Source: a virus
Lineage: Duplodnaviria; Heunggongvirae; Uroviricota; Caudoviricetes
Strand: one strand, 5' to 3'
Length of the DNA: 18,645 nt
Virus record (IMG/VR): IMGVR_UViG_3300029241_000184
Part shown: one piece after another, positions 1-14,784 of the stretch
Numbering within the stretch: position 1 is the first letter of the stretch
Layout: every line of letters begins with the position of its first letter
The notes under the pieces: model-generated
Seen by the model: only the letters and a program-made list of their open reading frames with translations
What the model was told of the DNA's origin: nothing
Databases searched by the model: none
Position numbers and translations under genes: made by a program

Positions 1-54
1 GCTGATAGAAACAGAAGCCACTGGAGCACCTCAAAAACACCATCATACACTAAA

Positions 55-492: not shown

Positions 493-1722
493 TTATGCGG
501 CAATAACTTTGCATTTTTGAGACGAAACATAGTCACTCCACCATTGCATGAGAACCACCCGTTCAGTGAGATACTCTGCACGATTGTAGGCTGCAATTAT
601 TTCATCTTTCTTCGAGTGGGCAAGGGCGGCTTCTAAGACATCAGTCCTAAACTTGCCAGACTCCTCAGCAGCCGTTCTAGCAATGGATCGCATACCGTGA
701 GCTACAAGCTCACCTCCGAAACCCATACGGATTATGGCCGCATTAGCTGTTTGTTCATGCATGTGATTGAGTGGAGCTTTGATACTGGGGAACACCCACT
801 CTCTATGCCCGCTGATGACTTTCATTAAATCCAAAACTCGCAAAGCTTCTTTGCTCAGTGGAACTTTGTGAGGCTTCTTCATTTTCATAAACTCCGCCGG
901 GATGTTCCACATGCCAGTTTCAATATCAATATCTGACCATCTTGTGCGAACAGCTTCACCTGGGCGAACCCATGTGAGAAGTTGCCACTCAATCAGTAGC
1001 CTTGTTTCCAAACGGATAGAAGCATTGTTTAGAGCAACCAAGAAGCGAGGGAGTTCGGAAGGGGGTAATGCTGGCATATTCTGTTTTTTTGGCTTGCTGA
1101 ACCGTTGCCCCAGGTTGTCTGCCGGGTTGAATTCTATGAGTTCTTCTGTTGCTGCATAGCGGAAAATTTCATTCAGGCGGGATATGATGCGGCGAAGTGT
1201 TTCAAGGACACCTCGTTTTTCTATGGGTTCTAAATGCTGTTTAAGCATTTTAGGGCGAATCTCCTTAATTGGGGTATCACCCAATGTGGAAAAGATATTT
1301 CTCTCTAGGCTTCGCCAGATGTCGTTAGCATGATCTTGGGAGATGCCTGACGTTTTGACTTTCTCATCAAGCCACTTCTTGGCTACTGCTTGAAATGTAT
1401 GTTCCGTGGCATCTTTCAGTGCATTGGCTTTTTGGTTGTTATGAACTTGGGGGTCTATACCATTTGTAAGCAACGACAAGTATTCATCACGTAAAGCTCG
1501 TGCCTTCGCAAGTGTAAGGTGAGGATAGGTTCCTAAGCTCACCTTAGTTCGCTTTTTGGTCACAGGCACTGCATATCTGAAATACCAATTTTTCTTCCCT
1601 CCCTTCGCCAGGGGAGCGATTCGCAACAGCAAACCATCGCCGTCAAAAAGGTTAACCTCTTTTTCGGCAGGTTTGGTGCTTTTGATTTCAGTGTCAGTGA
1701 GCTTCTTAGCGATTTTGGCCAT
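493..1722 (-). CDS. int: Tyrosine recombinase, P4-family integrase (integrase of an older, neighbouring island)
   Basis: ORF 493..1803; preferred start is the in-frame ATG at 1722 (MAKIAKKLTDTEIK..., GAGGG about 10 nt upstream). N-terminus KLTDTEIK...DGDGLLL is typical of P4-like integrase arm-binding domains; C-terminus carries HGMRS and AYNRAEY, consistent with the H-x-x-R and catalytic Tyr boxes. Paralogous to the integrase at 11401..12591. Confidence 0.88.
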   Translation of the reverse strand: MAKIAKKLTDTEIKSTKPAEKEVNLFDGDGLLLRIAPLAKGGKKNWYFRYAVPVTKKRTKVSLGTYPHLTLAKARALRDEYLSLLTNGIDPQVHNNQKANALKDATEHTFQAVAKKWLDEKVKTSGISQDHANDIWRSLERNIFSTLGDTPIKEIRPKMLKQHLEPIEKRGVLETLRRIISRLNEIFRYAATEELIEFNPADNLGQRFSKPKKQNMPALPPSELPRFLVALNNASIRLETRLLIEWQLLTWVRPGEAVRTRWSDIDIETGMWNIPAEFMKMKKPHKVPLSKEALRVLDLMKVISGHREWVFPSIKAPLNHMHEQTANAAIIRMGFGGELVAHGMRSIARTAAEESGKFRTDVLEAALAHSKKDEIIAAYNRAEYLTERVVLMQWWSDYVSSQKCKVIAA

Positions 1723-1820
1723 GTTTGGGACCCTCGATTTTAGGACCCATCTTCGTGGGTCCCATTCAGGGTGCCATAACTCGTAGTTCTCAGCAATTCT
1801 CACTAGACTACAATAGACGT

Positions 1821-1854
1821 AAAAAAGCCCGCAGAGCTTGTGCTGTGCGGGCTT
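1821..1854 (-). terminator. Hairpin plus T-run on the minus strand; diverged duplicate of the ssrA terminator
   Basis: aaaaaagcccgcagagcttgtgctgtgcgggctt matches the ssrA terminator at 12708..12742 (aaaaaagcccacagggcttgtgccgtgcgggctt) with three substitutions; GC stem followed by a T-run when read on the minus strand. Confidence 0.5.
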
Positions 1855-1888
1855 AGTAGACTTTACTGAACTTCAGTACATCAATATT

Positions 1889-1910
1889 TGGTGGGCTGGC
1901 GGAGTCTGAC
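1889..1910. other. Degenerate copy of the ssrA 3' end; likely attR of the P4-like satellite and junction between the two tandem islands
   Basis: tggtgggctggcggagtctgac versus the true ssrA 3' end tggtggagctggcgggagttgaac at 12775..12798 (about 20 of 24 positions with two 1-nt gaps), lying the same distance and order from the terminator-like hairpin as in the intact ssrA. Confidence 0.5.
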
Positions 1911-1961
1911 TTTGTCTTTTAATTGTCTGTATTTAATGGTTTTTTATTAAATTGAGATTTT

Positions 1962-1982
1962 GGATATACCTAAGCGTATACC
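1962..1982. repeat. Two GTATACC-type motifs (ggatatacc, cgtatacc); candidate integrase arm-type sites on the far arm
   Basis: Same heptamer family as the four copies at 12614..12661 next to int; acctaagcgtataccaat here versus acctaaacgtataccaat there. Confidence 0.4.
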
Positions 1983-2102
1983 AATTCTGCTTTGTAGGCA
2001 CAAAAATACAGTCATGCTGGTATGACAATTCCAACCCCGTCACAGCTTGTATCCATCTGGTCACACATGACAAAAGCAGGCAACCAATACTAAGAATTTA
2101 CT

Positions 2103-2762
2103 TTACGGCTCTTCGCTATTGGGGTTCTTAACTTTTTCCCATTCAATGCCCAACCCTTTAAATTTTTGTGCAAATGGGATTACTATGAGCGCAACACAAG
2201 CCCCTAATAGTGCCATTCTCTCAGTGGTTAAAAAATTAAATCGTATATCTGCAATTACTATAAGTAATAAGGCGACAGCAAGAAACCAAGTAACTCGTTG
2301 AAAAATATCCATCGTTTGAGATTTTTTCTGCCGAATATCATTTTTCCTAACTGCTGACTGCTCTGCGGTAAGGGCTCGAAAAGTTGGGAAAAGATTGAAA
2401 TCAGATTTAACTAATTCACCCGAATCACTGACTGAATACAGTGAAAATGGCAATGGGTTATTAGGCAGGGAGGATACGGTCACCAAGAAAAGTGGGATTT
2501 TTTCATTTCCAATTGCTTGTTTGTATCTTTTTAATTGATTTAGAGTGTTTTCGCTATGTGCAAATCTGTCTGACTTTATTTCAATAATAGCAAGATATTC
2601 TTTCTTTTCTGGATCTATAATTGCAAAGTCTGGTCTATATGTGTTTTTGCCATCGTTGGAGAAAAATGCTGGTTCGTATAATATAGAATCTTTGGTATAT
2701 CCTAGTGATAATAAGTATTCAGAGAATTTATTTTCCGCCTCTGAATGGTAATTGTTGTCCAT
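2103..2762 (-). CDS. Membrane-anchored protein with an N-terminal restriction-endonuclease-like (PD-(D/E)xK, HsdR-N-like) motif and two C-terminal transmembrane helices; AT-rich cargo gene
   Basis: 219-aa ORF with GAGAGGGA about 7 nt upstream of the ATG at 2762. N-terminal segment LGY...YRPDFAIIDPEKKEYLAIIEIKS carries a D ... E-I-K arrangement as in restriction-endonuclease-fold proteins; C-terminus has two hydrophobic stretches (WFLAVALLLIVIADI and ALLGACVALIVIPFA). Visibly AT-rich compared with the neighbouring primase gene. Confidence 0.7.
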   Translation of the reverse strand: MDNNYHSEAENKFSEYLLSLGYTKDSILYEPAFFSNDGKNTYRPDFAIIDPEKKEYLAIIEIKSDRFAHSENTLNQLKRYKQAIGNEKIPLFLVTVSSLPNNPLPFSLYSVSDSGELVKSDFNLFPTFRALTAEQSAVRKNDIRQKKSQTMDIFQRVTWFLAVALLLIVIADIRFNFLTTERMALLGACVALIVIPFAQKFKGLGIEWEKVKNPNSEEP

Positions 2763-2956
2763 TACAGTCCCTCTCTGCTGTGTGAAAACTAGTGAGCTAA
2801 ATTAATAAGGTAACTAAAAAACGCAAGAGATTCAATTGATTAACGAGTGATAGGTCAAGTCAAGGTCAAACTCGGCGATCATGATGGTTATCTTGTTGAA
2901 TCACAGCCAGACATGATGAATTTCTAGGTTGGAGAAAAAACTTTTTTTCAGGAAAA

Positions 2957-3058
2957 CTGTTCACACTGTTCACACTGTTCACACCGTTGTTTTTGCTTTT
3001 AATTTCATAGTGATACGTTGTGAATGGTTGGTAAACAGTGAACACTTTACTGTTCATT
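2957..3058. repeat. Iteron cluster: three tandem CTGTTCACA repeats (2957..2983) plus inverted and variant copies (gtgaaca 3038..3044, tgttcat 3052..3058); candidate ori-type alpha-binding iterons
   Basis: Tandem 9-bp repeats seen directly; the core TGTTCAC matches the P4 type I iteron octamer TGTTCACC that I recall as the alpha-protein binding site in P4 ori and crr. Lies immediately downstream of the alpha-like gene. Confidence 0.6.
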
Positions 3059-3108
3059 TTTGCCGTTTTGCAGGTAAAAAAAGACCGGCGATTGCCGGTC
3101 AGGGTAGA

Positions 3109-5442
3109 TTATTTTGCTACAGGGTCATCACATTTCGGCAGCCAGTCGGCGTTGCTTTCCTCTCTTAGTGTTAGATTGGTTTGTATGCCCTGATTTTTTC
3201 GGCGCTTCTCATAACTTAGCCCGTACTCTTTCAGCATAGCTGGCAGCCCCTTACCGAACATGGTGAGGCTCAGGGTGTTCCTGTAGCCGTGGGCCTCCAT
3301 ATACGCCAGATAGGCATGATACAGATACAGGCGCGGCTGACGCGGAATGATGTTGGCATTGCCAATATACATTCCCTCAGGCTCCGGCAGTGCTTCCAGA
3401 TAGCCGCAAAAATCAAATGTCGGGTCAGCATCGCGTTTAATACTGAGCGCCTCGTCCGAGTTCTGCTGTGACTGGAGCAGGGCGCGGGCGGTCATCGGGT
3501 CGCTGAACTTCTGCATAAGCTGCCGAACAATCACCGCCAGCTCACGGGCGATTTTATTCTTAAGCTGCGGGTCACGTTCCTCCGGGGCAATCTGTTCCGG
3601 GAAATGCAGAATCACCCGGCGCCGTGAGACACCGCCGCTACGGTCGGTAAAGCGCATCGGGTTATTGTTCACGGCCAGAATCACCGCTGGAATATGGGTG
3701 GAGTACGCATCCTTGTATTTCGGGTCAACGGAGACCGCATCCCCGCCGGTGATGGCCTTGAGTCCTGCCCCGTCACCACTCCATTTTTCCTGGTCAGGCA
3801 GGCGTATCAGCGAGAAGCCAATCAGCGCAGCGCGTTCACGCGGTGATTCCAGCGTTTCGATGGTGGCCGATGTGGCGTTATCTTCCCCGGCGAGCAGGGT
3901 CGCAATTTCGGCCAGAATACTTTTCCCGCTGCCACCCGGCCCGGTCACTTCGAGAAAGAGCTGCCAGTCGTAGCGGTTCGCCAGTACCATAAACAGGGCG
4001 GCAAGTATCACGTCGCGTTTTTCCGGTCGGCCACCGGCGGCACGGTCGAGCCAGCGCCAGAAATCCGGCGCATGGGTTTCCAGCGTTTCGCCCTCCACCG
4101 GTGGGGTAAAATCGACATCACAGAGTGTGCGCAGCCAGTGCGATTTATGATGCGGGCTGAAAGTACCGGTAGCGGTATCGAGTACGCCGTTACGAAAACC
4201 AATCAGACGGCGCGCCGGTGCGTCCTGCTGCGGAATAATCAGTTTCAGGGTCTCCACCACTGAGGCAATTTTCCCCGACGAGAACGGTGCGCGCAGACGC
4301 TGAAATAACCCGGCCACGTCGCGGGCAAAATCCGATGGCGGAATGATTTTCCATATACCGGCCTCATAGCGGGACAGGAGCTGGCCATTTGCGTCCACGG
4401 CCAGCGCTTCGCCGTAATGTTCATGCACCCGCATTGCCTTTTCACTGGTGCTCATGGCGGTAAATTCCGCCTCGCTCATGGTAGTGAAAGGACTGTCAGC
4501 CAGTGGCCGGATGGCGTCATAAATCGCTTTCCGCGTCGCCTCTTCGCCTTTCTGAACGAACGCATCATTCCAGTCACCGAACACCGGCGGCAGGGCAACA
4601 ACACCCTCACAGGCGTCTGCGGCCGCAGCGGCTTTTGTCTGGCCGGCGCCGTTAAGGTCACGGTCGGCGGCGAGGACAATCTGACAGGCCGGGTGTTTCT
4701 GACGGGCAAGGCTCGCCAGAGAAAAGAGGTTCACGGAGGACAGCGCCACCATGACGGTTTCGCTGGTCAGGTGATGTACGGTGAGTGCCGTCGCATAACC
4801 CTCCGCAATCCACAGGCGTTTTCCGGCCTGTTTTTTTCCTCCGATGACATGACATGTCCCTTTGACCTGACCGCCTTTCAGGGTGCGTTTGAGACCGTCA
4901 GCATTAATAAGCTGAAGGTTAACCAGTGCGCCGGTATCCTCATACAGCGGGACAACCACATCCCCGGCGCGGAACGTCACGCCGCCGGTTTTATGCATGA
5001 CTGTCAGTACCGGACATTCCCGGTCGGGGAACCCCTTGCGGGTGAGGTAGGCGTTGTCGGTGGCCGGGCGCGTTTTCTCCAGCAGTCTGACGGCCAGCGC
5101 GGCCGCCGCTTTGCGGTCGGCATCGGTTTCAGCCTCTGCGGCTGCCATCACTTCCGGGGCAACCGGCGACAGATTGCCGGTCACGGCGTTCACCTTCCCG
5201 GCGGCTTCTGACGGGGTCACGCCAAACACTTTTTCTACCAGCTTAAGCCCGTCACCCGCGCCGCACTGATTGCAGAACCACGTCCCGCGCCCTTCTTTAT
5301 CGTCAAAGCGAAAACGGTCAGAGCCGCCACACACCGGACAGGCCTGATGGCGGTTTTTAATCACCTTCACACCCAGCGCCGGAAGAATGCGCGGCCAGTG
5401 GCCGCACGCCTGTTTTACCGTTTCTGTTACGTTCATTTTCAT
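3109..5442 (-). CDS. P4 alpha-type primase/helicase (zinc-binding primase N-terminus plus helicase domain)
   Basis: ORF 3109..5493; preferred start at ATG 5442 (MKMNVTETV..., GAGGGAG upstream) giving 777 aa, the length of P4 alpha. N-terminal CPVCGG...CNQCG zinc-binding motif; Walker A-like GPGGSGKS in the C-terminal half. Confidence 0.9.
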   Translation of the reverse strand: MKMNVTETVKQACGHWPRILPALGVKVIKNRHQACPVCGGSDRFRFDDKEGRGTWFCNQCGAGDGLKLVEKVFGVTPSEAAGKVNAVTGNLSPVAPEVMAAAEAETDADRKAAAALAVRLLEKTRPATDNAYLTRKGFPDRECPVLTVMHKTGGVTFRAGDVVVPLYEDTGALVNLQLINADGLKRTLKGGQVKGTCHVIGGKKQAGKRLWIAEGYATALTVHHLTSETVMVALSSVNLFSLASLARQKHPACQIVLAADRDLNGAGQTKAAAAADACEGVVALPPVFGDWNDAFVQKGEEATRKAIYDAIRPLADSPFTTMSEAEFTAMSTSEKAMRVHEHYGEALAVDANGQLLSRYEAGIWKIIPPSDFARDVAGLFQRLRAPFSSGKIASVVETLKLIIPQQDAPARRLIGFRNGVLDTATGTFSPHHKSHWLRTLCDVDFTPPVEGETLETHAPDFWRWLDRAAGGRPEKRDVILAALFMVLANRYDWQLFLEVTGPGGSGKSILAEIATLLAGEDNATSATIETLESPRERAALIGFSLIRLPDQEKWSGDGAGLKAITGGDAVSVDPKYKDAYSTHIPAVILAVNNNPMRFTDRSGGVSRRRVILHFPEQIAPEERDPQLKNKIARELAVIVRQLMQKFSDPMTARALLQSQQNSDEALSIKRDADPTFDFCGYLEALPEPEGMYIGNANIIPRQPRLYLYHAYLAYMEAHGYRNTLSLTMFGKGLPAMLKEYGLSYEKRRKNQGIQTNLTLREESNADWLPKCDDPVAK

Positions 5443-5456
5443 CGTTGTTTTCTCCC

Positions 5457-5777
5457 TCAGTGCACTACCGGTACGGTGATGTGACGGGCGCAAAGCTCAT
5501 CCATCACGGCCAGCCCGAGAAAGGACAGCGACGGCGCGGCTTTGAGTGGACCGGCTTCCATTAAATCTTCCAGTAATGCACAGGCTATCTGGCGGCCTTT
5601 TTCCTCGCCGTGCTGGCGCAGGTAGAAGCCCTCCAGCTCGGTAGCGATGGCACTTTCCAGCGCGTCGAGGGTGAGGTTCGGGTAGCGGCGCTGGCGTTCG
5701 CACAGGGTCAGCCATGCACAGGCCACGGCGCGACGATACAGCGCGGCGCGTAATACGGGCGGTAATGGCTTTTTCAT
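5457..5777 (-). CDS. Hypothetical protein of the satellite early operon (106 aa)
   Basis: ORF whose start overlaps the stop of the upstream ORF (translational coupling), ending 15 nt before the alpha start; same strand and operon as the alpha gene. No recognisable motif. Confidence 0.55.
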
Positions 5778-6001
5778 ACGTTGCCCTCCCCGGTCAGCCA
5801 GTGCTGATTGCAGCGTTCAACCACGCCGTCGAGCTGGGCGGTCATGAGGTAAATCACGGAGGTGAGCTGTAACTGCTGCGCCGGGTCACGACGAACGGTG
5901 GCGCAGTCCTGTACCTGCATCAGGTCGCTGACGAGCTGGCCGACATTGCGCATATGCTCCAGACATTCGAGGTCACGGGCGGTAATGGTGGTGTGTCTCA
6001 T
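5774..6001 (-). CDS. Hypothetical small protein of the satellite early operon (75 aa)
   Basis: ORF with start/stop overlaps (ATGA) to both neighbours on the same strand, typical of coupled small genes in P4-like early operons. Confidence 0.5.
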
Positions 6002-6192
6002 GCGCGCACCTCCGCAACAGGCAGACGGCCAGCAAATGAGAGGACGTAATCGCGAACGAGGGAAAGGCGTGCGGCGTGCTCATCACCGGCAACGGTGCGG
6101 AGCATACAAATACGGGGTTTACGGTCTGCACGACGAACGGCGGCAAACACAAAAACAAATTGCGGGTGTAACGGGGTGAGGATAGTAGCCAT
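5998..6192 (-). CDS. Hypothetical small protein (64 aa), possibly Icd-like; short form of the 185-aa ORF
   Basis: Internal ATG at 6192 ([19 protein letters not shown]...) preceded by GGAGG about 8 nt upstream; the longer 5998..6555 extension is low-complexity and overlaps the AlpA-like gene, so the short form is preferred. The Icd-like label is a recollection of similar annotations, not verified. Confidence 0.45.
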
Positions 6193-6551
6193 GATGGCAG
6201 CCTCCATTGAGTAGCGGTTACTGCTACCACCGGAAACGCCAATTTCACTGGTGGCAGCCCGAACGGGGTTGGCGTAACCGGCCTCAATGGATACCGGCCA
6301 GCCCGAAGGCTGCCCCGCCCGGACTACCATTATCTTGCTGGAACCATGGTGTATAAAAAGACACCACAACCCGGAAAATGGGTGTGCCTGAGCTACGACG
6401 AAAAAAAAGACGCACGGCGCGTCTGGTGTCGCCATTGAGTTTCGCGGAACGCCAATTCCGGCTGTCGATTTTGCGACAGCGGGAAAACTATACCTGGAAA
6501 CGGCGAAAAGAAGCAAGCCAGAAAAAGGGGCTGAATGCTGAACGGTCATCA

Positions 6552-6818
6552 TCATGCGTCACAGCCCCGGTTGCGTTCGGCAATGCGATCTGCCATCCAT
6601 GCGGTGATTTCAGACTGCGCCCACGCCACGTTTTTACCGCCCAGGCTGATTTGTTTCGGGAAGGCTTCCCGGCTGATGAGGTCATAAATGGTCGACCGGG
6701 ACAGGCCACACAGATGCATCACTTCGGGCAGGCGGATAAAGCGCTCCTGAACGGCATCAGAAACCGGCATCAGCGGCGCGGCAGGGGCAGAAGACGGGGA
6801 AGAAAAAGCGGTGTGCAT
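6552..6818 (-). CDS. alpA: AlpA-family phage transcriptional regulator (small DNA-binding, excisionase-like)
   Basis: [54 protein letters not shown] matches the AlpA/excisionase-like helix-turn-helix family; GAGGT upstream of the ATG at 6818. An alternative start at 6770 (MPVSD) is possible. Confidence 0.8.
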
Positions 6819-7087
6819 CGGGCTACCTCACAAAGTCCATACAGTGCCGGTCGTGTCCGTCCGGCTTCGGGTAGCTCTCTATTTTGTGAATATTTTCCCT
6901 CAGGGCAACAAGTCTTTTTATAGCTCCTCGTCACACAACAGAGCGATTTTTGAACAATGGCAAACGCTGGCAAACAGATGCAAATCAATGCATTACATTG
7001 CAGTAACTTTAAGTACTTTCACTTATATATTTCCTCATAATTAATCGGAAAAAAGACTAAATCCGACACCCCAGGCAAAAAGCAAAA

Positions 7088-7192
7088 GGTGAACAGTAGT
7101 GAACAGTCGGTGAACAGTTACACCCTCAACTGTTCACCCTTTATCTTACTGTATTACTTATCTTTTTCTTTTCAGTGAACAGTAGTGAATAG
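7088..7192. repeat. Second iteron cluster: GGTGAACAGT x3 (7088..7117), inverted TGTTCACC (7131..7138), GTGAACAG (7175..7182) and variant gtgaatag; candidate crr-type alpha-binding iterons in the divergent early/late control region
   Basis: Direct and inverted copies of the same octamer as at 2957..3058, about 4.1 kb away; I recall that P4 ori and crr are separated by about 4.5 kb. Confidence 0.6.
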
Positions 7193-7268
7193 TTATAAGT
7201 AAAAAAACAAACAGTGAGTAAGGTTTTCCTGAGACCTTTCTCTGGCCAGCCGGGTTTTAAGGTCTGTT

Positions 7269-7286
7269 TGTGCCATTTTTGCCACA
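7269..7286 (+). promoter_or_regulatory. TGT-N12-ACA dyad upstream of the sid-like gene; candidate Ogr/Delta activator site of the late promoter
   Basis: TGTgccatttttgccACA about 75-90 nt upstream of the ATG at 7359; P2/P4 late promoters carry a TGT-N12-ACA element near -55. No clear -10 identified, so low confidence. Confidence 0.3.
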
Positions 7287-7358
7287 ACGGCAATGAATCG
7301 TGTTGTTGTGTCTGGCGCGGCAGAATCTCCTCAGGTTGAAACGAAGAGGAGACCCGAC

Positions 7359-8096
7359 ATGACTCAGACCGCTGTTATTCCCGACTACCTTAAACCTGCA
7401 ATGGAACGCCTTGAGACTGCCCGCTCGGCGCATCTCGTCAATGCCAGCCGTATGGATGAAACCACGACGGCCATCAGCCAGGTGCAAACGCAAAAAAAGG
7501 AACTGGAGCAGGAAAACGGCAATGATTCCGGCGCATGGCGCGCCGCCTTTCGTGCCGGTGGTGCTGTCATTACCGACGAGCTGAAACAACGCCATCTGGC
7601 GCGCGTGGCACGGCGGGAACTGGCGCAGGAATGTGACAGCATGAACGAGGTACTGTCTTTTGAGCTGGACAGGCTCAAAGGAGCCTGTGACCGCACGGCC
7701 AGAGCATACCGTCAGGCACATCACGGCGTCCTCAGTCAGTATGCAGAGCATGAACTTGATGCTGCCCTGCGTGAAAGCTGCGGTGCCCTCATCAGAGCAA
7801 TGAAACTCAACATACTGGTTCTGAATAATCCGCTTGCTAATACGACCGGGCATCAGGGATATATCGAACCGGAAAAAGTTGTAATGCAGCAGGTGAAAGC
7901 GTGGCTTGAACAGGCCGTAAAGGGCTGCAATATCCGTCTGACCGATGAACCGGTGCTGTTTAAAACAGGGCTGTCGGCTTCCACACTGCCGCATATGGAA
8001 CATGACGTTGCGACCATGCCCGGTCAGCGAAAAGTCTGGCAGGAAAAAATGTGGGAACGTGAAGCTGACCTGAAAGCACGGGGGTTATTGTCATGA
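7359..8096 (+). CDS. sid: Sid-like protein (P4 capsid size determination / external scaffold), first gene of the late operon
   Basis: ORF 7293..8096 trimmed to ATG 7359 (MTQTAVIPDYLKP..., AAGAGGAG upstream) giving 245 aa, close to P4 Sid (244 aa); position immediately upstream of the Ogr/Delta-like and psu-like genes matches the P4 sid-delta-psu order. Called from size and synteny only. Confidence 0.55.
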   Translation: MTQTAVIPDYLKPAMERLETARSAHLVNASRMDETTTAISQVQTQKKELEQENGNDSGAWRAAFRAGGAVITDELKQRHLARVARRELAQECDSMNEVLSFELDRLKGACDRTARAYRQAHHGVLSQYAEHELDAALRESCGALIRAMKLNILVLNNPLANTTGHQGYIEPEKVVMQQVKAWLEQAVKGCNIRLTDEPVLFKTGLSASTLPHMEHDVATMPGQRKVWQEKMWEREADLKARGLLS

Positions 8097-8338
8097 TGCG
8101 CTGCCCTTTCTGCCGCACGGCGGCACACGTTCGCACCAGCCGCTATATGTCTGACAGCGTCAAAGAGAGTTACCTGCAGTGCCAGAATGTGCACTGCTCG
8201 GCGACATTCAAAACGCATGAGTCCATCTTTGAAGTGATACGTTCGCCGGTCGTCGATGAGAAACCCGCGCCGGTGCCGACAGCCCCCGTGGCACCCCGTC
8301 GGGTAAAAGGCTGCTACAGCTCGCCGTTCCGCCATTAA
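8093..8338 (+). CDS. Ogr/Delta-family zinc-finger late-gene transcriptional activator
   Basis: MMRCPFCRTAAHVRTSRYMSDSVKESYLQCQNVHCSATFKTHES has the C-x2-C ... C-x4-C arrangement and RTSRY / QCQN motifs of P2 Ogr and P4 Delta; start overlaps the stop of the sid-like gene. Confidence 0.85.
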   Translation: MMRCPFCRTAAHVRTSRYMSDSVKESYLQCQNVHCSATFKTHESIFEVIRSPVVDEKPAPVPTAPVAPRRVKGCYSSPFRH

Positions 8339-8354
8339 TCAGGAGAGACAACCC

Positions 8355-8921
8355 GTGACCACTCTGACCTTACAGCAGGCCTATGACGCCTGTCAGACGA
8401 ACAAAACCGCGTGGCTGAACCGTAAAACCGAACTGGCCGCCGCAATGCAGGAATATCAGGAATTATTGCTGGATGACAATGTATCAGGCTCCCGCAGATT
8501 ACAGATGCTGCGTGACCTGATTGACGTAAAAAAATGGGAAGTTAATCAGGCCGCCGGTCGCTACATCTTCTCGCATGAGGAGGTGCAGCGCATCAGCATC
8601 CGTAACCGGCTGCATGATTTTATGCAGCAGAACGGCGCAGAGCTGGCCGCCGCACTGGCACCGGAGCTGATGGGGATTAAAAACCAGCCCGCGATGATAA
8701 AAAATCGCGCGCTTGACCGTTCAGTCTCTTACCTGAGAGAAGCTCTTTCCGTCTGGCTGACCGCTGGAAATGACATTAATTATTCTGCACTGGATAACGA
8801 CATCTTAACGGCCATCGGATACAGGCCTGACGCGCCTTCGCGGGATGATAATCGTGAAAAATTCACCCCTGCACAGAACATGATTTACACCCGTCGACGC
8901 GCCGGACTGGCCGCGCAGTAG
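8355..8921 (+). CDS. psu: Psu-like protein (P4 polarity suppression / capsid decoration)
   Basis: 188 aa (P4 Psu is 190 aa), third gene of the sid-delta-psu type operon; N-terminal region ...QQAYDACQTNKTAWLNRKTELAAA... and QAAGRYI resemble Psu as I recall it. Confidence 0.75.
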   Translation: MTTLTLQQAYDACQTNKTAWLNRKTELAAAMQEYQELLLDDNVSGSRRLQMLRDLIDVKKWEVNQAAGRYIFSHEEVQRISIRNRLHDFMQQNGAELAAALAPELMGIKNQPAMIKNRALDRSVSYLREALSVWLTAGNDINYSALDNDILTAIGYRPDAPSRDDNREKFTPAQNMIYTRRRAGLAAQ

Positions 8922-8967
8922 TCTGTCAAAAAATCCCTGTAAATCCCGTCATTTTTCCCGAATTTAG

Positions 8968-8994
8968 CCATGCATCCCTAAGGTGCATGGTTTT
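8968..8994 (+). terminator. Candidate rho-independent terminator after the psu-like gene
   Basis: Inverted repeat ccatgca / tgcatgg with a 9-nt loop followed by tttt. Confidence 0.4.
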
Positions 8995-9094
8995 GCATGC
9001 GTTTTCCCGACCCTGCACTCCCTGCCAGCGCCAGTTGCGGCGCGGCCTGAGGCCACCTTTGCACCTGCATTAAAAGCGGTCCCTTAAGCGGGCA

Positions 9095-9113
9095 GGCGTG
9101 GCGGGGAGAGCAT
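9095..9113. other. cos-like site (P2/186/P4-type 19-nt cohesive end sequence)
   Basis: ggcgtggcggggagagcat differs at one position from the phage 186 cohesive end GGCGTGGCGGGGAAAGCAT as I recall it, and at three from P2 (GGCGAGGCGGGGAAAGCAC); lies just downstream of psu, where cos sits in P4. Confidence 0.55.
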
Positions 9114-9375
9114 TGCGCGCTAAGTTAAAGATACTTTTAATTTTACAACTACGTTGTGATATCTTTTTAACTCGCTAATTCAATAGTGATAAAACAATTT
9201 TTTATAGCTAATAAGAATCAATTCCAGACTAACAATCGTCAAAAACTATGTTTTGTGAATGGCTATCTAAAAATACTGGCTTAATTATTTGACGTGATCT
9301 AAAGTACTGATGAAATTATTATACTGATTTAATTTTTTAACTGCTAAAAACATTAACAAAAAATAAGGGATTCAC

Positions 9376-11361
9376 ATGGCAGAGAAATCATTTAATGTAG
9401 AAGTACAGATGGATTATTTAGATAAGGTTTCTAAATCTTCTGCATTACAAGCAATCGCTGAGTTGGTATGGAATGCCTTAGATGCTGATGCTGAAAATGT
9501 ATATGTTGATTTGACAGAGTCTGAATTAGGACTCTCGCATATATTTATCAGGGATGATGGTAATGGTATTCCCTATGAGAATGCAGAAAAATTATTTAGT
9601 TCACTGGGCGGATCATGGAAAAAAGACAAGGTTTTATCAGAAAGAAAATCTCGTTTTTTACACGGAAAAGAAGGGCAGGGACGTTTTAAGGCATTCTCAA
9701 TAGGTCGATATATTGAGTGGGATACTACTTATTTACTTGATGATGTATATTATGAATATAAAATAAAAGGAATAGCTGATAATAAGAAAAAGATTTCAGT
9801 TTCTGATAAGGTAGTATCAAGTGAAGTTAAATCAGGAACAGTTGTTTCTATATTGGAATTGGTGAAAAACTTCACCTCTTTGACACCTCAAAAACTATCT
9901 GAGTTTCTTTCCACTACACTTGCTTTATATCTTAGTAAATACCCATCCGTAAAAGTATTTGTAAATCGAGAACAAATCGATCCAACAGCACAGATTTTAT
10001 TTGATACAAGCTATAAATTAGATGATGTAGTTTATTGTGATGAATTACATTCATATGAGTTACAAGTTATTGAATGGAAGTCAGCTAAAGAAAATGAGAT
10101 TTTTTTATGCGACAAAGAAGGTTTTCCCTTAATAAGTTATGAGAAGAAAATTAGAGGGACTGGTACATATTCTTATTCTGTTTATTTGAAGTCTACACAT
10201 TTGACCAAACTTTCCCATGAGGGTACTTTGTCGCTCATGGATTTAGAGCCTTCTTTAAGCCCTGTATTAAATAAAGTCGAAGGTTTGATAAAGGAACACT
10301 TCCGGAAAAGAGATCATGAAAAGTCAAGGGAGTTAATTGATAAATGGAAAAATGAAGGTGTTTATCCGTATGTTGGTAAGGCCGAAAATATTGTTGAGGA
10401 TGCTGAAAGAAAAGTATTCGATATTATGGCCATCAATGTTATAAAATACATACCACAATTTGATAATGGCGATCTTAAACTTAAGAAATTTCAGTTTAAA
10501 TTACTCAAGCATATTGTTGGGAGTTGCCCTGATGACTTGAGAACTATATTAGAGGAGGTTCTCTCGCTTCCTAAGGAAAAACAAGCTGAATTGGCTGAGA
10601 TATTAAGGGATGCCTCATTGTCAGCTGTTATTAGTGTTTCCAAAATAATTACTGATAGATTGAAGTTCATATCTGGGCTTGAGAATGTATTATTTCATCC
10701 GAATACAAGAAAAGTATTCAAAGAGAGAAGTCAGCTTCATAAAATAATGGCGGATAATACATGGTTTTTTGGTGAGTCTTTTACATTGAGTGTCAATGAT
10801 AAGTCACTAACTGAAGTATTAAAAGTACATTTGGAAAAGCAAGGGATTGATATTCCAGTTGATGAGAAAGTAACTAGGATAGATGGTAGTGTAGGTATTG
10901 TTGATTTAATGCTTACTAGAAGTATAGGCAAAAATTACCCAGATGAGCGTGAGCATATTATTATCGAATTAAAGGCACCTAAAGTAAATATAGGTCAATC
11001 AGAAATAGAACAGGTTAAATCCTATGCGTATGCAGTTGCTGAAGACGCAAGATTTAATGGTTTAAAAACAAAGTGGAACTTCTGGGTTATATCGAATGAG
11101 CTCACAACTTATGCTCTCAGAGAATTAAAACAAAAAAACCTTCCTGAAGGTGCAATATATCAAGCTGAAGAAATGACTATTTGGATAAAAACTTGGTCCC
11201 AACTTATTCAAGAGAACAAACATAGATTGGGTTTTCTACAGAATCAGCTTAATATTTCGTATGACCGTGAAGATGGACTACAGTTCTTAAAGCAAAAGTA
11301 TGCTGAGTACACTGAGGGCGTTGTATTTGAAAATGAATCACAGGATGAGTATATAGATTAA
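9376..11361 (+). CDS. 661-aa GHKL-type (HATPase_c, Bergerat-fold) ATPase fused to a C-terminal PD-(D/E)xK-like nuclease motif; candidate single-gene anti-phage defense protein carried as satellite cargo
   Basis: Single uninterrupted ORF with AAGGGA 6 nt upstream of the ATG. N-terminus: E29-x3-N33-A-x-D36-A (N box; E29 codon at 9460), D60-D-G-N-G64-I (G1 box, 9556..9567), G97-K-E-G-Q-G102 (G2 box, 9664..9681). C-terminus: GIVD510LML ... IIIE531LK533 (D at 10903..10905, E-L-K at 10966..10974) in the arrangement of PD-(D/E)xK nucleases. Strongly AT-rich with A/T-ending codons, unlike the flanking P4 core genes. Confidence 0.85.
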   Translation: MAEKSFNVEVQMDYLDKVSKSSALQAIAELVWNALDADAENVYVDLTESELGLSHIFIRDDGNGIPYENAEKLFSSLGGSWKKDKVLSERKSRFLHGKEGQGRFKAFSIGRYIEWDTTYLLDDVYYEYKIKGIADNKKKISVSDKVVSSEVKSGTVVSILELVKNFTSLTPQKLSEFLSTTLALYLSKYPSVKVFVNREQIDPTAQILFDTSYKLDDVVYCDELHSYELQVIEWKSAKENEIFLCDKEGFPLISYEKKIRGTGTYSYSVYLKSTHLTKLSHEGTLSLMDLEPSLSPVLNKVEGLIKEHFRKRDHEKSRELIDKWKNEGVYPYVGKAENIVEDAERKVFDIMAINVIKYIPQFDNGDLKLKKFQFKLLKHIVGSCPDDLRTILEEVLSLPKEKQAELAEILRDASLSAVISVSKIITDRLKFISGLENVLFHPNTRKVFKERSQLHKIMADNTWFFGESFTLSVNDKSLTEVLKVHLEKQGIDIPVDEKVTRIDGSVGIVDLMLTRSIGKNYPDEREHIIIELKAPKVNIGQSEIEQVKSYAYAVAEDARFNGLKTKWNFWVISNELTTYALRELKQKNLPEGAIYQAEEMTIWIKTWSQLIQENKHRLGFLQNQLNISYDREDGLQFLKQKYAEYTEGVVFENESQDEYID

Positions 11362-11371
11362 CATAATTGAA

Positions 11372-11402
11372 AGGCTCGCCAGTTTATTCTGGCGAGTTTC
11401 TT
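11372..11402 (+). terminator. Rho-independent terminator after the cargo gene, convergent with the end of int
   Basis: Stem ctcgccag / ctggcgag (8 bp) with a 6-nt loop, followed by tttctt. Confidence 0.5.
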
Positions 11403-12591
11403 AAAGACTGGATACTTTATTACCCCACCAATTCATTAATTCTATTCTTTGCGGAAGATATATAGAGCGATTATAAGCTCTTCGTACTTCATCTTTATAA
11501 CTATGAGCTAGTGCTGCCTCAATAACATCAGCATTGAATCCTGCTTCATTCATGGCAGTACTGGCTATAGAACGTAAACCATGTGCAACAAGCTTTCCAC
11601 CATAACCAATTCTCTTCAGCGCAGCATTAGCAGTCTGGCTATTCATTGGCAGCTTAGGGTCATTTCTGCTAGGAAAAACATGTTCTCGATGGGCACTGAT
11701 TGGCTTCATCACTTCTAAAATTTCTAATGCTTGAGGAGACAAAGGTACGATGTGCTCTCGTTTAGCCTTCATCCGTTCGGCTGGAATCGTCCAAAGCTTC
11801 GCATCAAGATCGATCTCTTCCCACCGAGCTCCGGAAGCCTCAGAAGGACGCACAAGGGTCAGGAGCTGCCACTCAATTAGACAGCGAGTCGAAACAGATA
11901 GATTCGACATGACTAGAGAACGCATCAGCTTTGGCAATTCCTCTGGCCGCAGCGTCGGCATATTTTGCTTTTTGGGCTTCTCAAAGGCCATCCCAACTCC
12001 TGAGGCTGGGTTCGCATCAATCAGACCCGTGTTTACGGCATAAATCATTATCTCGTTAATGCGTTGCACCAGTCGACGTACAGTCTCAAGCGCCCCACGA
12101 GCTTTGATGGGCTCAAGAGCTTCAACCAGTGTCCGGGCTTTGATTTGCTGAACAGGGATCTCACCGATGGCAGGGAATACATCTTTCTCCAGTGAGCGCC
12201 AAATGTCTTTTGCGTAATCAGGGGTAACGCTTTTGCTTTTGAGCTGGAACCAGTTAGCGGCGACCGTTGAAAAAATACTGTCCAGTGCGATTTGCTGCTG
12301 TTCCTCTGCAACTTCAGCTTGAATCTGTGGGTCGATTCCATTGGCTAATAAGGCAAGGTAATCAGCTCTTAACCCTCGGGCATCAGCAAGCGATAGGGCG
12401 GGGAAGGCTCCGAGTCCCATCATTGTCCGCTGTTTTGTTGCCGGACGTTGATAACGGAAACGCCAGAGCTTTTTGCCGCTGGTTTTCACTATCAGGAAAA
12501 GCCCATCGCCATCATGTAGCGTTAGATCCTTCTCTAGCGCTTTAGCGCGCAGAACTTCGGTGTTGGTCAGGGGGCGTGTTGTCCGTGCCAC
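11401..12591 (-). CDS. int: Tyrosine recombinase, P4-family integrase of the satellite, adjacent to ssrA
   Basis: 396-aa ORF; N-terminal LTLHDGDGLFL...GKKLWRFRY as in P4-type integrases; C-terminal HGLRS and AYNRSIY catalytic boxes; same orientation as ssrA and immediately downstream of it. Confidence 0.92.
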   Translation of the reverse strand: MARTTRPLTNTEVLRAKALEKDLTLHDGDGLFLIVKTSGKKLWRFRYQRPATKQRTMMGLGAFPALSLADARGLRADYLALLANGIDPQIQAEVAEEQQQIALDSIFSTVAANWFQLKSKSVTPDYAKDIWRSLEKDVFPAIGEIPVQQIKARTLVEALEPIKARGALETVRRLVQRINEIMIYAVNTGLIDANPASGVGMAFEKPKKQNMPTLRPEELPKLMRSLVMSNLSVSTRCLIEWQLLTLVRPSEASGARWEEIDLDAKLWTIPAERMKAKREHIVPLSPQALEILEVMKPISAHREHVFPSRNDPKLPMNSQTANAALKRIGYGGKLVAHGLRSIASTAMNEAGFNADVIEAALAHSYKDEVRRAYNRSIYLPQRIELMNWWGNKVSSL

Positions 12592-12613
12592 TGTGGCCGC
12601 TCCTTCATGAATT

Positions 12614-12661
12614 GGTATACGCTTTTAGGTATACATCCTACCGTATACCTAAACGTATACC
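12614..12661. repeat. Four direct copies of a GTATAC(C) motif at 12- to 14-bp spacing between the int start and the ssrA terminator; candidate integrase arm-type sites
   Basis: ggtatac (12614), ggtatac (12628), cgtatacc (12642), cgtatacc (12654); the same motif recurs at 1962..1982 at the other end of the element. Confidence 0.45.
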
Positions 12662-12707
12662 AATAATCACCGGATTTAGCCGGATGCTCTCGGACAACTA
12701 CAGACAC

Positions 12708-12742
12708 AAAAAAGCCCACAGGGCTTGTGCCGTGCGGGCTTT
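12708..12742 (-). terminator. ssrA rho-independent terminator
   Basis: On the minus strand, stem aagcccgcacggcacaagccctgtgggctt followed by tttttt, about 33 nt downstream of the mature tmRNA 3' end. Confidence 0.7.
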
Positions 12743-12774
12743 CAGGATTTCACCGGACGTATCCGGATCATAAT

Positions 12775-13138
12775 GTGGTGGAGCTGGCGGGAGTTGAACC
12801 CGCGTCCGAAATTCCTACATCCTCGGTACTACATGCTTAGTCAGTCTTTATATTCGCTTGCCAGCTGCGGACGGACACGCCACTAACAAACTAGCCTGAT
12901 TAAGTTTTAACGCTTCAACCCCAGGCAGGGCTTCCACGCGATCTCTTTTGGGTTTGACCTCTCTTGATCCCCGTCCTAAGAGCGGAGGCTAGGGAGAGAG
13001 GGCTCTAAGCAGGTTATTAAGCTGCTAAAGCGTAGTTTTCGTCGTTTGCGACTATTTTTTGCGGCTTTTTACGAGGCCAACCGCCCCTCGGCATGCACCT
13101 TGGGTTTCGCAAATCCCGTCGAATCCAGAATCAGCCCC
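12775..13138 (-). ncRNA. ssrA: tmRNA (SsrA, transfer-messenger RNA)
   Basis: Minus strand reads GGGGCTGATTCTGGATTCGACGGG ... GGAGTTGAACCCGCCAGCTCCACCA; internal tag reading frame at 13017..13049 (minus) encodes ANDENYALAA followed by a stop. Length about 363 nt; ends are within a few nt. Confidence 0.95.
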
Positions 13139-13352
13139 AATGTGTAAAGGTAAGTATACCAGATTTATGAGCGCCATGACCAGCCTCAATGGCGTTATCG
13201 TTAAAGATTTAGCACCCATGTAGCCTGATTTTTATTCGATTAAGCAATGGGATGGCAACATTTGTGTCGGATGTGATAGCCAATAAGATGTTCATTCGCG
13301 CCGCCGGAGAGGGAGGCGCGGTGAGGAACTGGTCAATAATTGGAGTGCAGGT

Positions 13353-13835
13353 TTAACGGTGGGCGTTTTTCATGATACGTGCTTTATCCACCTGCCATTC
13401 GCGCTCTTTGATATCTGAACGTTTATCGTGCTGTTTCTTACCTTTGGCGACGCCGATTTTCACTTTGCACCAGGCATTTTTCCAGTACAGGGAGAGCGCC
13501 ACTACGGTATAGCCTTCTCGATTGACGCGACCGTACAATGAGTCCAGTTCGCGCTGGTTGAGAAGTAACTTGCGGGTACGGGTAGGATCGCACACCACAT
13601 GCGTGGAGGCCACGGCCATTGGCGTGATGTTAGCGCCAAACAGAAATGCCTCTCCGTCACGCAGAAGGACGTAGCTGTCGCTGATATTGGCTTTTCCTGC
13701 GCGCAGGGATTTAACTTCCCAGCCTTGCAGGGCAAGTCCCGCTTCGAACTCTTCTTCGATAAAGTATTCGTGACGGGCGCGCTTGTTAAGCGCGATGGTC
13801 GCTGAACCAGGTTTATGTGCTTTTTTCTTCGTCAT
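13353..13835 (-). CDS. smpB: SsrA-binding protein SmpB
   Basis: 160-aa ORF immediately upstream of ssrA on the same strand; length and sequence consistent with SmpB. Confidence 0.93.
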
Positions 13836-13966
13836 AAGCGTCGTGAATCATCGGTAATCTGAAATCGAAAACACCCCATATCAATCCTGCGGGGGACAAG
13901 GCTCTATCTTAGCATGAACCCGATGTTACCCAGCGCCGGGATAGCGTTTTTTTTACAGCAGGATAA

Positions 13967-14443
13967 ATGATATTATTTGTTGGATTTTTGTTGATGGAAA
14001 TTGTTATGCCTCAGATTAGCCGGACCGCACTGGTACCCTACAGCGCGGAGCAAATGTATCAGTTAGTGAATGACGTTCAGTCTTATCCTCAGTTTTTGCC
14101 GGGTTGTACCGGAAGTCGGATTCTGGAGTCCACTCCTGGGCAGATGACTGCGGCGGTAGATGTCTCTAAGGCTGGGATCAGCAAAACGTTTACTACCCGC
14201 AACCAGTTGACCAGTAACCAAAGTATTCTTATGAATCTGGTGGATGGGCCGTTCAAGAAATTGATTGGTGGATGGAAGTTTACGCCGCTGAGCCAGGAGG
14301 CGTGTCGTATCGAGTTTCATCTCGACTTTGAGTTTACCAATAAGTTGATTGAACTCGCCTTTGGTCGCGTGTTTAAAGAGCTGGCGGCTAATATGGTCCA
14401 GGCTTTTACGGTTCGTGCGAAAGAGGTTTACAGTGCCAGGTAA
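13967..14443 (+). CDS. ratA: Ribosome association toxin RatA (SRPBCC/polyketide cyclase-like fold)
   Basis: 158-aa ORF in the conserved position divergent from smpB; the true start may be an internal Met. Confidence 0.8.
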
Positions 14444-14723
14444 AATTGCCGTTGAGGTGGCTTATGCGCTACCTGAGAAGCAGTACCTGCAGCGAGTGAC
14501 GCTGCAGGAGGGCGCGACGGTTGAAGAAGCTATTCGCGCCAGTGGCTTGCTGGAATTGCGTACCGATATCGATTTAACTAAAAACAAAGTCGGCATTTAC
14601 AGCCGTCCGGCAAAACTAAGCGATAGTGTGCATGATGGCGATCGGGTGGAGATTTATCGCCCTCTCATTGCCGATCCGAAAGAGCTTCGCAGGCAACGAG
14701 CAGAAAAATCAGCGAATAAATAA
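14433..14723 (+). CDS. ratB: RatB (YfjF-type small protein, UPF0125)
   Basis: 96-aa reading frame from GTG at 14433 (AAGAGG 6 nt upstream), overlapping the end of ratA; the ORF track shows the in-frame upstream extension 14349..14723. Confidence 0.75.
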
Positions 14724-14730
14724 CAGACAG

Positions 14731-14760
14731 AAAAAAGGTGCTCATTGAGCACCTTTTTTA
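14731..14760. terminator. Bidirectional rho-independent terminator between ratB and bamE
   Basis: aaaaaaggtgctcattgagcacctttttta: GC stem flanked by an A-run and a T-run, so it can terminate on either strand. Confidence 0.6.
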
Positions 14761-14784
14761 ACGTCTTTGAGAGCAACTTTATTA

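What the first reader, a model, noticed from the sequence alone, without database searches (positions are those of the whole stretch)
1889..12777. Apparently complete P4-like satellite with replication, late-control and packaging modules intact
The backbone retains an alpha gene of exactly 777 aa, an AlpA-like regulator with three coupled small ORFs, a sid-like/Ogr-Delta/psu operon, a cos-like site, iterons and an integrase with arm-type repeats. I saw no frameshifts or obvious truncations in these genes. If functional, a P2-type helper could mobilise the element together with its cargo genes.
Basis: partly seen in the sequence, partly recalled or inferred. Interest (0 to 1): 0.55.

Follow-up and report, generated by a model that had tools for sequence, protein, structure and literature searches.

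The report
Intact P4-like phage satellite at ssrA
This is an apparently intact 10.9-kb P4-type phage satellite inserted at the tmRNA gene of E. coli; it is a common, well-described kind of element, and it carries two foreign genes that look like anti-phage nucleases.

Summary
Window 1895-12790 is a 10.9-kb P4-like satellite in the 3' end of E. coli ssrA. Every claimed part is present and intact. These are alpha (777 aa, 85% identical to P4), cnr, an eta/kil ORF, AlpA/Vis, sid-delta-psu, a P2-type cos, ori and crr iterons, and a three-domain integrase with arm repeats. The "coupled small ORFs" region also encodes the P4-type RNA immunity system. Its three pairing sites differ from P4 in a mutually compensating way. 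The exact 19-nt cos end also occurs in genuine P2-like phages, so matching helpers exist. All seven published P4-like core markers are met. Two differences from P4 are both normal for the family. The true P4 epsilon and orf151 are absent, with a conserved 75-aa protein of unknown function in their place. No PLL-type activator site lies upstream of alpA. The cargo is AT-rich and occupies the two known P4 hotspots. One gene is a GHKL-ATPase/PD-(D/E)xK nuclease of 661 aa and the other an HsdR_N-like protein with a hydrophobic tail of 219 aa. Neither matches a known defence system. Near-identical copies occur in about 11 of 5426 E. coli genomes. Excision and packaging are untested. This is an ordinary new member of a known kind.

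The parts
1889..1912 (.). attR: a degenerate copy of the ssrA 3' end (TGGTGG-GCTGGCGGAGTCTGAC). The 8-bp block GCTGGCGG (1895-1902) is identical to attL.
   Evidence: Alignment with the ssrA end. Identity with the same element in other strains begins at 1888-1894.
1963..1982 (+). Arm-type integrase-binding repeats on the attR side (GATATACC / GTATACC).
   Evidence: They are conserved in EcPF15 and 19SZHZ713Rt.
2103..2762 (-). Cargo gene 2: a 219-aa protein with an HsdR_N / PD-(D/E)xK-like N-terminal domain and a hydrophobic C-terminal tail. It lies in the minor primase-att hotspot, at 34-39% GC.
   Evidence: Pfam HSDR_N_2 at 1.7e-6; no PADLOC hit; absent from otherwise 97% identical elements; GC; hotspot described in PMC13586616.
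2956..3048 (.). crr-like cis replication region: three direct TGTTCAC iterons plus one inverted, homologous to P4's second crr repeat.
3083..3100 (-). Terminator-like hairpin after alpha.
   Evidence: P4 has its annotated alpha terminator (t-alpha) at the same place.
3109..5442 (-). alpha primase-helicase, 777 aa.
   Evidence: 84.6% identity to P4 alpha; Pfam domains; phrog_2249.
5457..5777 (-). orf106 / cnr homologue (DUF5375), 106 aa.
   Evidence: 87.7% identity to the P4 protein; PF17345 at 1e-63.
5774..6001 (-). Conserved 75-aa protein of unknown function. It occupies the place of P4 epsilon and orf151.
   Evidence: phrog_10110; 320 homologues in Enterobacterales; helical-hairpin model; no informative fold match; described as unknown in PMC8628076.
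5998..6555 (-). eta-like ORF (185 aa, Pfam Phage_ASH) with a nested kil-like ORF (6192-5998, 64 aa). The kil-like ribosome-binding site overlaps seqC.
   Evidence: 70% identity to the P4 region; PF10554 at 3.8e-31; sequence reading. The names eta and kil come from my memory of the P4 literature.
6247..6334 (-). CI immunity RNA (Rfam C4 antisense RNA family). seqB is UCCAUUGAG at 6291-6283.
   Evidence: Rfam 82.9 bits, full length; pairing analysis.
6403..6480 (-). Leader RNA (Rfam isrK, the SeqA-type leader) with seqA (6439-6432) and a terminator.
   Evidence: Rfam 74.5 bits; PMC4825925.
6487..6516 (-). PLE-like promoter (TTGCTT, 18 nt, TATAGT), matching P4's TTGCCT, 18 nt, TATAGT at the same position.
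   Evidence: Direct comparison.
6552..6818 (-). AlpA / Vis homologue, 88 aa.
   Evidence: 70% identity to P4 orf88; PF05930.
7089..7181 (.). ori: five exact TGTTCAC iterons plus one degenerate, in the same arrangement as P4 ori.
7269..7286 (+). Psid activator (Ogr/Delta) site TGTGCCATTTTTGCCACA. Its centre is 81.5 nt upstream of the sid ATG, the same spacing as in P4.
7359..8096 (+). sid (capsid size determination), 245 aa.
   Evidence: 64% identity to P4 Sid; phrog_6165; start codon as called by PGAP.
8093..8338 (+). delta, an 81-aa single Ogr/Delta zinc-finger domain.
   Evidence: PF04606 at 5.6e-21; matches both halves of P4 delta.
8355..8921 (+). psu (polarity suppression and capsid decoration), 188 aa.
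   Evidence: 62% identity to P4 Psu; PF07455 at 1e-87.
9060..9121 (+). cos site. The 19-nt cohesive-end equivalent GGCGTGGCGGGGAGAGCAT lies at 9095-9113.
   Evidence: [quoted passage not shown]
9376..11361 (+). Cargo gene 1 in the main psu-int hotspot: 661 aa with a GHKL ATPase, a transducer domain and a C-terminal PD-(D/E)xK nuclease domain, at 32-35% GC.
11401..12591 (-). Tyrosine integrase, 396 aa, with arm-binding, central and catalytic domains.
   Evidence: 36% identity to P4 Int.
12611..12664 (.). Arm-type repeats on the integrase side: four copies of GTATACC, two in each orientation.
12709..12745 (-). Hairpin terminator downstream of ssrA, supplied by the element.
12783..12790 (.). attL core GCTGGCGG inside the 3' end of ssrA (ssrA is 12776-13138, minus strand).

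Best explanation
Window 1895-12790 is an integrated, structurally intact P4-like phage satellite of E. coli. It would excise as a circle of about 10.9 kb.

The likely life cycle runs as follows.
- **Integration.** The tyrosine integrase, with AlpA/Vis, inserts and excises the element at the 3' end of ssrA. The element supplies the replacement ssrA end and terminator.
- **Lysogeny.** Transcripts from the PLE promoter are terminated early. The processed CI RNA pairs through seqB with seqA in the leader and with seqC over the kil-like ribosome-binding site. This keeps alpha silent.
- **Lytic growth with a helper.** When a P2-type helper is active, its Ogr-type activator and the satellite's own single-domain Delta switch on Psid.
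- **Capsid hijacking.** Sid redirects helper capsid assembly to small heads and Psu decorates them.
- **Replication and packaging.** Alpha replicates the genome from ori and crr. The helper terminase cuts and packages it at a cos site identical to that of real P2-like phages.
- **Cargo.** Two AT-rich genes in the two known P4 hotspots travel with the element. They probably protect the host against other phages.

What is shown here is the identity and intactness of all genes and cis sites, the covarying immunity sites, the cos match with helpers, and the precise boundaries. The rest is inferred from P4 biology: excision, replication, capsid redirection, packaging and the defence function of the cargo.
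For: **Gene-by-gene comparison with P4.**
- alpha 84.6%, cnr 87.7%, eta/CI region 70%, vis 70%, sid 64%, psu 62%, int 36%.
- Delta matches both halves of P4 delta.

**Family markers and RNA.**
- The marker families are present with full-length hits.
- The CI RNA and leader are found by Rfam above gathering score.
- seqA, seqB and seqC are mutually complementary. They differ from P4 at all three sites together: CCAUUGAG/CUCAAUGG here against CCUGUGAA/UUCACAGG in P4.

**Promoters and origins.**
- The PLE promoter hexamers are conserved.
- The Psid TGT-N12-ACA site sits at the same spacing as in P4. Such a site is present upstream of sid in 61 of 61 relatives.
- The ori iteron layout is that of P4.
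- The crr has 4 iterons, a count shared by 10 of 50 relatives.

**cos.**
- The region is 74% identical to P4 cos and 82-89% identical to P2-like phage cos regions.
- The exact 19-mer occurs in 108 IMG/VR contigs.
- These include phages with a P2 capsid, GPO scaffold, terminase, portal and GPA.

**Boundaries and distribution.**
- The same element at 99% identity sits at ssrA in other strains. There the attR side abuts ypjA instead of a second integrase. Identity starts exactly at the att block.
- 11 of 5426 genomes carry at least 80% of the element.
- PGAP calls no pseudogenes in the 99.4% identical copy.
Against: - There is no homologue of the true P4 epsilon (helper derepression) or of orf151. 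Induction of a resident helper prophage may therefore not work as in P4.
- No PLL-type TGT-N12-ACA lies upstream of alpA. This is also true of 52 of 59 relatives.
- attL and attR share only 8 identical bases flanked by similarity with 1-nt indels.
- The element sits in a tandem array with a second integrase island. Such arrays can complicate precise excision.
- The crr has one repeat unit rather than P4's two.
- No functional test was possible.
- I could not check whether the source genome holds a helper prophage.
Confidence: 0.85

Rival explanations
1. The element is a cryptic, domesticated P4-like island comparable to CP4-57. It looks intact but no longer excises or is mobilised, and it persists by vertical descent because its cargo and immunity are useful to the host.
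For: - No true epsilon gene.
- Short, imperfect att identity.
- Tandem arrangement with a second island that is itself disrupted by IS1.
- Only about 11 of 5426 genomes carry the element.
Against: - All genes are intact and all cis sites conserved.
- The near-identical element is found with a different distal neighbour, with identity ending exactly at the att block. This points to site-specific insertion as a unit.
- Close relatives share core genes but differ in cargo, a sign of ongoing exchange.
- Lack of epsilon and of a PLL site is the family norm.
Confidence: 0.12
2. The element is not a P4-type satellite. It is another kind of helper-dependent island (PICI-type) or an integrative plasmid that merely shares a primase.
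For: AlpA and primase-helicase genes also occur in PICIs and other islands. This statement rests on my general knowledge, not on a tool result.
Against: - sid, psu, delta, the CI RNA, a P2-type cos and P4-type iterons are all present in P4 order.
- No other packaging or capsid gene was seen among the ORFs.
Confidence: 0.01

Closest known systems
Satellite phage P4 (NC_001609 / X51522)
   Same: - The gene order is the same: int, hotspot, cos, psu-delta-sid, ori, vis, immunity RNA, cnr, alpha, crr, att.
- alpha is 777 aa in both.
- The iteron sequence, PLE promoter, Psid site spacing, CI RNA fold and cos region are conserved.
   Different: - It integrates at ssrA with a 36%-identical integrase.
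- Delta has one Ogr domain (81 aa) instead of two.
- Epsilon and orf151 are absent and a 75-aa ORF takes their place.
- There is no PLL consensus site.
- The crr has one repeat unit.
- The immunity specificity differs (seqA, seqB and seqC).
- The cos end differs at 3 of 19 positions.
- gop-beta-cII is replaced by a GHKL-nuclease gene.
- An extra gene lies between crr and att.
P4-like satellites of Enterobacterales, 'Type A' (Moura de Sousa and Rocha, PMC8628076; SatelliteFinder, PMC10085698)
   Same: All seven marker families are present and co-located. The size is about 11 kb. It carries the 75-aa protein reported in 61% of the family and the cnr family reported in 90%.
   Different: Nothing essential differs; this is one more member. 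It carries candidate cargo in both the main and the minor hotspot. The literature reports known defence systems in more than one hotspot for only about 1% of P4-like elements, but neither cargo gene here is a recognised system.
CP4-57, the cryptic P4-like prophage at ssrA of E. coli K-12 (from memory)
   Same: It uses the same chromosomal site, next to smpB. It also has a P4-family integrase and AlpA. In strain EcPF15 the present element abuts ypjA; from memory, ypjA marks the far end of CP4-57.
   Different: From memory, CP4-57 is a large degraded island without the sid-delta-psu-cos module. The present element keeps all satellite functions.
Shedu (SduA) nucleases with GHKL-ATPase N-terminal domains (10.1101/2023.08.10.552793)
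   Different: There is no DUF4263 or PADLOC SduA hit by sequence. Other PD-(D/E)xK nucleases (FokI, NucS, AF1548) score equally well.

Membership tests
P4-like phage satellites (definition of PMC8628076) | Psu homologue (PF07455, E<=1e-5, at least 40% profile coverage) | tested here: met
   E 1.4e-87, profile positions 1-181 of 182.
P4-like phage satellites (definition of PMC8628076) | Delta homologue (PF04606) | tested here: met
   E 5.6e-21, profile positions 1-47 of 47.
P4-like phage satellites (definition of PMC8628076) | Sid homologue (the authors' custom profile) | tested here: met
   The custom profile was not available. The protein is 64% identical to P4 Sid over 240 aa at E 2e-102, and hits phrog_6165 at 5e-110.
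P4-like phage satellites (definition of PMC8628076) | AlpA homologue (PF05930) | tested here: met
   E 3.1e-20, profile positions 2-51 of 51.
P4-like phage satellites (definition of PMC8628076) | 'epsilon' marker, which that study detects with PF10554 (Phage_ASH) | tested here: met
   The ORF at 5998-6555 hits at E 3.8e-31, profile positions 1-107 of 107. This profile hits the eta/CI-region ORF. It does not hit the 95-aa P4 derepression protein, which has no homologue here.
P4-like phage satellites (definition of PMC8628076) | Alpha primase (PF03288) | tested here: met
   E 1e-18, profile positions 1-86 of 86; 84.6% identity to P4 alpha.
P4-like phage satellites (definition of PMC8628076) | Integrase (PF00589) co-located within 10 genes | tested here: met
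   E 1e-30. One gene separates it from psu.
P4-like phage satellites (biological definition) | cos site recognised by a P2-type helper terminase | tested here: met
   Met at the sequence level only. The region is homologous to P4 and P2 cos. The exact 19-mer occurs in P2-like phages. Cleavage was not tested.
P4-like phage satellites (biological definition) | Helper-dependent packaging into small capsids, plus excision and replication | not testable with these tools
   This requires experiments.
P4 RNA immunity (CI RNA with seqA and seqC) | CI RNA with a loop sequence complementary to sites upstream and downstream of it | tested here: met
   Rfam C4 at 82.9 bits and isrK at 74.5 bits. Complementary stretches of 8-9 nt occur at both sites and covary with respect to P4.
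Shedu (SduA) defence nucleases, considered for the 661-aa cargo | DUF4263-type nuclease domain | tested here: inconclusive
PICI-type satellites | PICI hallmark packaging-redirection genes, with no sid/psu/delta module (hallmarks recalled from memory) | tested here: not met
   sid, psu and delta are present. No other packaging gene is found among the ORFs.

The most novel reading that the evidence does not exclude
The two AT-rich cargo genes may be uncharacterised single-gene anti-phage systems carried in both P4 hotspots at once. One would be a GHKL-ATPase-gated, Shedu-like PD-(D/E)xK nuclease. The other would be a membrane-anchored HsdR_N-like nuclease. Separately, the conserved 75-aa helical protein in the epsilon slot may be the family's usual, still unknown, helper-manipulating factor.
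Probability: 0.4. Interest if true: 0.4.

Novelty: new member of a known kind. Interest (0 to 1): 0.2.

Why it matters
The element matters mainly as a clean, fully annotated example. It shows a P4-like satellite whose genes and cis sites can all be mapped base by base. Its RNA immunity specificity has co-evolved at three sites, and its cos end matches natural P2-like helpers. If mobilised, it would spread two candidate defence genes among Enterobacterales. None of this changes current understanding. P4-like satellites occur in about a third of Enterobacterales genomes and their defence hotspots are already well documented. The only open points are the function of the 75-aa protein and of the two cargo genes.

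Tried and rejected
1. **Known defence system for the cargo.** PADLOC gave only weak N-terminal hits to type II restriction-enzyme models for the 661-aa protein and nothing for the 219-aa protein. Sequence searches of the PDB found only GHKL N-terminal similarity. A profile of the C-terminal domain found nothing. [quoted passage not shown] The AlphaFold model is a plain helical hairpin and Foldseek found nothing below E = 1. The 75-aa ORF and epsilon co-occur in 5 of 57 related loci, so they are not strict alternatives.\n3. **PLL-type late promoter upstream of alpA.** There is no exact TGT-N12-ACA, only two one-mismatch candidates at positions that do not correspond to P4's site. I rejected this as a lesion because 52 of 59 relatives also lack the site.\n4. 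**Single crr unit as a defect.** I rejected this because 4 iterons is a common count among relatives.\n5. **Classical P4 literature on crr and kil/eta.** It is not held in the library. Those names rest on my memory.\n6. **Helper prophage in genomes carrying the element.** This was not feasible with the available search outputs.
Full report
**Setting.** The window is E. coli chromosome. The right part (12776-18645) holds ssrA, smpB, ratA, yfjF, bamE, recN, nadK and grpE. ssrA lies on the minus strand at 12776-13138, so its 3' end faces the region under study.

**The observation.**
- A tblastn of all P4 proteins against the window gave these identities: alpha 84.6% over 775 aa without gaps, orf106/cnr 87.7%, the "cI/orf137" region 70%, orf88/vis 70%, sid 64% and psu 62%.
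- Both halves of P4 delta matched a single 81-aa ORF. The integrase was 36% identical.
- From ATG 5442 to the stop at 3109, alpha is exactly 777 aa. It has the primase zinc ribbon, Toprim, D5_N, DUF5906 and Pox_D5 domains.
- AlpA (6552-6818) is followed by three ORFs with overlapping stop and start codons.
- The TGTTCAC iteron occurs 10 times against 2.2 expected. Nine copies cluster in two places. One is between alpA and sid (7089-7181), laid out as in P4 ori. The other is just downstream of alpha (2958-3044), homologous to P4's crr.
- The region after psu is 74% identical to the P4 cos region. The 19-nt cohesive-end equivalent is GGCGTGGCGGGGAGAGCAT at 9095-9113, against GGCGAGGCGGGGAAAGCAC in P4.
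- The integrase has arm-binding, central and catalytic domains.
- GTATACC occurs 6 times against 0.97 expected. Five copies lie in the two att arms.
- PGAP annotates all genes of a 99.4% identical copy as intact.

**Boundaries.** The att block GCTGGCGG occurs at 12783-12790, inside the ssrA 3' end, and at 1895-1902. Around it the similarity is imperfect: TGGTGGAGCTGGCGGGAGTTGA against TGGTGG-GCTGGCGGAGTCTGA.
- In EcPF15 the far end abuts ypjA rather than a second integrase.
- Identity with the window begins at 1888-1894, at or just before the att block.
- The element is therefore a discrete unit of 10,888 bp, 94% of P4's length.
- To its left lies a second P4-family integrase (493-1803, 51% identical) with its own copy of the terminator hairpin and pseudo-ssrA end. 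The locus is thus a tandem array, as also seen in strain YZ22PE165 with a different P4-like element.

**What the "coupled small ORFs" really are.** Rfam finds two RNAs inside the first ORF. One is a full-length C4-type antisense RNA at 6247-6334, the family that holds P4's CI RNA. The other is an isrK-type leader at 6403-6480. [quoted passage not shown]
- A promoter with P4's PLE hexamers and spacing lies just upstream.
- The CI loop sequence UCCAUUGAG is complementary to CUCAAUGG in the leader (seqA).
- It is also complementary to CUCAAUGGA, which overlaps the GGAGG ribosome-binding site of a nested 64-codon ORF (seqC).
- In P4 the three sites read UCCUGUGAA, UUCACAGG and UUCACAGGA.
- The sites have therefore changed together. 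This argues for a working immunity system with a specificity different from P4's.

**Late control and packaging.** An exact TGT-N12-ACA dyad lies 81.5 nt upstream of the sid ATG, the same spacing as in P4.
- Such a site exists upstream of sid in 61 of 61 related loci.
- No such site lies upstream of alpA. That is also true of 52 of 59 relatives, so it is a family trait rather than a lesion.
- The exact 19-nt cos end occurs in 108 IMG/VR contigs. Most of the 80 loci fetched are P4-like.
- Several come from contigs of about 30 kb without P4 markers. Two that I examined encode a P2-family capsid protein, GPO scaffold, terminase, portal and GPA replication protein, with cos beside the portal gene.
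- Helpers with a matching cos therefore exist.

**Membership.** The published definition of P4-like satellites uses Psu, Delta, Sid, AlpA, "epsilon" (Pfam PF10554), alpha and an integrase (PMC8628076). All seven are met, so this is a "Type A" element.
- One nuance: PF10554 hits the eta/CI-region ORF. The true 95-aa P4 derepression protein and orf151 have no homologue here.
- In their place is a 75-aa ORF. It matches the 75-aa protein of unknown function, absent from P4, that the same paper reports in 61% of P4-like elements.
- It is highly conserved across Enterobacterales and models as a helical hairpin. It has no informative fold match.
- Among 57 related loci, 49 have only this ORF, 3 have only epsilon and 5 have both.

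**Cargo.** Two segments have 32-39% GC against 55-61% for the core.
- Gene 9376-11361 lies in the main psu-int hotspot.
  - Its C-terminal domain has D510, E531 and K533 invariant in 60 homologues. It hits HSDR_N_2 just below threshold.
  - The family is widespread as a solitary gene in Gammaproteobacteria. It is not recognised by PADLOC.
  - A Shedu study mentions homologues with exactly this GHKL plus middle-domain architecture. Membership remains unproven.
- Gene 2103-2762 encodes 219 aa with an HsdR_N / PD-(D/E)xK-like domain and a hydrophobic tail.
  - It lies between crr and attR.
  - It is absent from otherwise 97% identical elements.
  - That position is the minor primase-att hotspot, reported to hold 7% of P4 defence systems (PMC13586616).

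**How common it is.** In all, 1605 of 5426 complete E. coli genomes match part of the element and 11 carry at least 80% of it. The family is reported in more than 30% of Enterobacterales genomes.

**Verdict.** This is an intact, probably functional, P4-like satellite of a well-known kind. Function was not tested: excision, replication and packaging all remain to be shown. The main caveats are the short att identity, the tandem context and the lack of a recognisable helper-derepression gene.

Noticed in passing
window 1-210: Bases 1-76 are the terminal end of an IS1 copy. The 51-aa ORF at 55-210(-) is only the N-terminal fragment of a serine recombinase (Resolvase domain). The neighbouring island is therefore disrupted by IS1. 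Strain YZ22PE165 has an IS1 at the corresponding position, where its match to the window begins.
   Followed up: partly
window 493-1888: A second P4-family integrase (436 aa, 51% identical to the satellite's) has its own arm-binding domain, an upstream hairpin and a pseudo-ssrA 3' end. ssrA therefore carries a tandem array of two islands.
   Followed up: partly
window 12709-12745 and 1821-1856: Each island carries a similar minus-strand hairpin terminator 40-60 nt beyond the real or pseudo ssrA 3' end. The inserted element thus supplies both the 3' end and the terminator of ssrA.
   Followed up: partly
window 1889-1912: The displaced ssrA-like 3' end reads ...CUCCGCCAGCCCACCA. It lacks the U that forms the G3-U pair of the tmRNA acceptor stem, so it could not serve as a functional ssrA end. 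It looks like a decayed or island-specific copy.
   Followed up: no
window 13154-13160: One further GTATACC copy lies 16 nt upstream of the ssrA 5' end, on the bacterial side. It may be chance.
   Followed up: no
L007, L008, L011 and many other IMG/VR loci: Many P4-like elements share alpha, cnr, the 75-aa ORF and alpA at 88-97% identity with the window. Their sid is only about 26% identical and their psu about 70%. The capsid-redirection module is therefore swapped between otherwise close satellites.
   Followed up: no
L005 (E. coli YZ22PE165) 20001-30168: A different, more P4-like satellite occupies the same ssrA-proximal position ahead of the same second integrase. It has epsilon, orf151, a two-domain delta and a NACHT-domain cargo gene.
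   Followed up: partly
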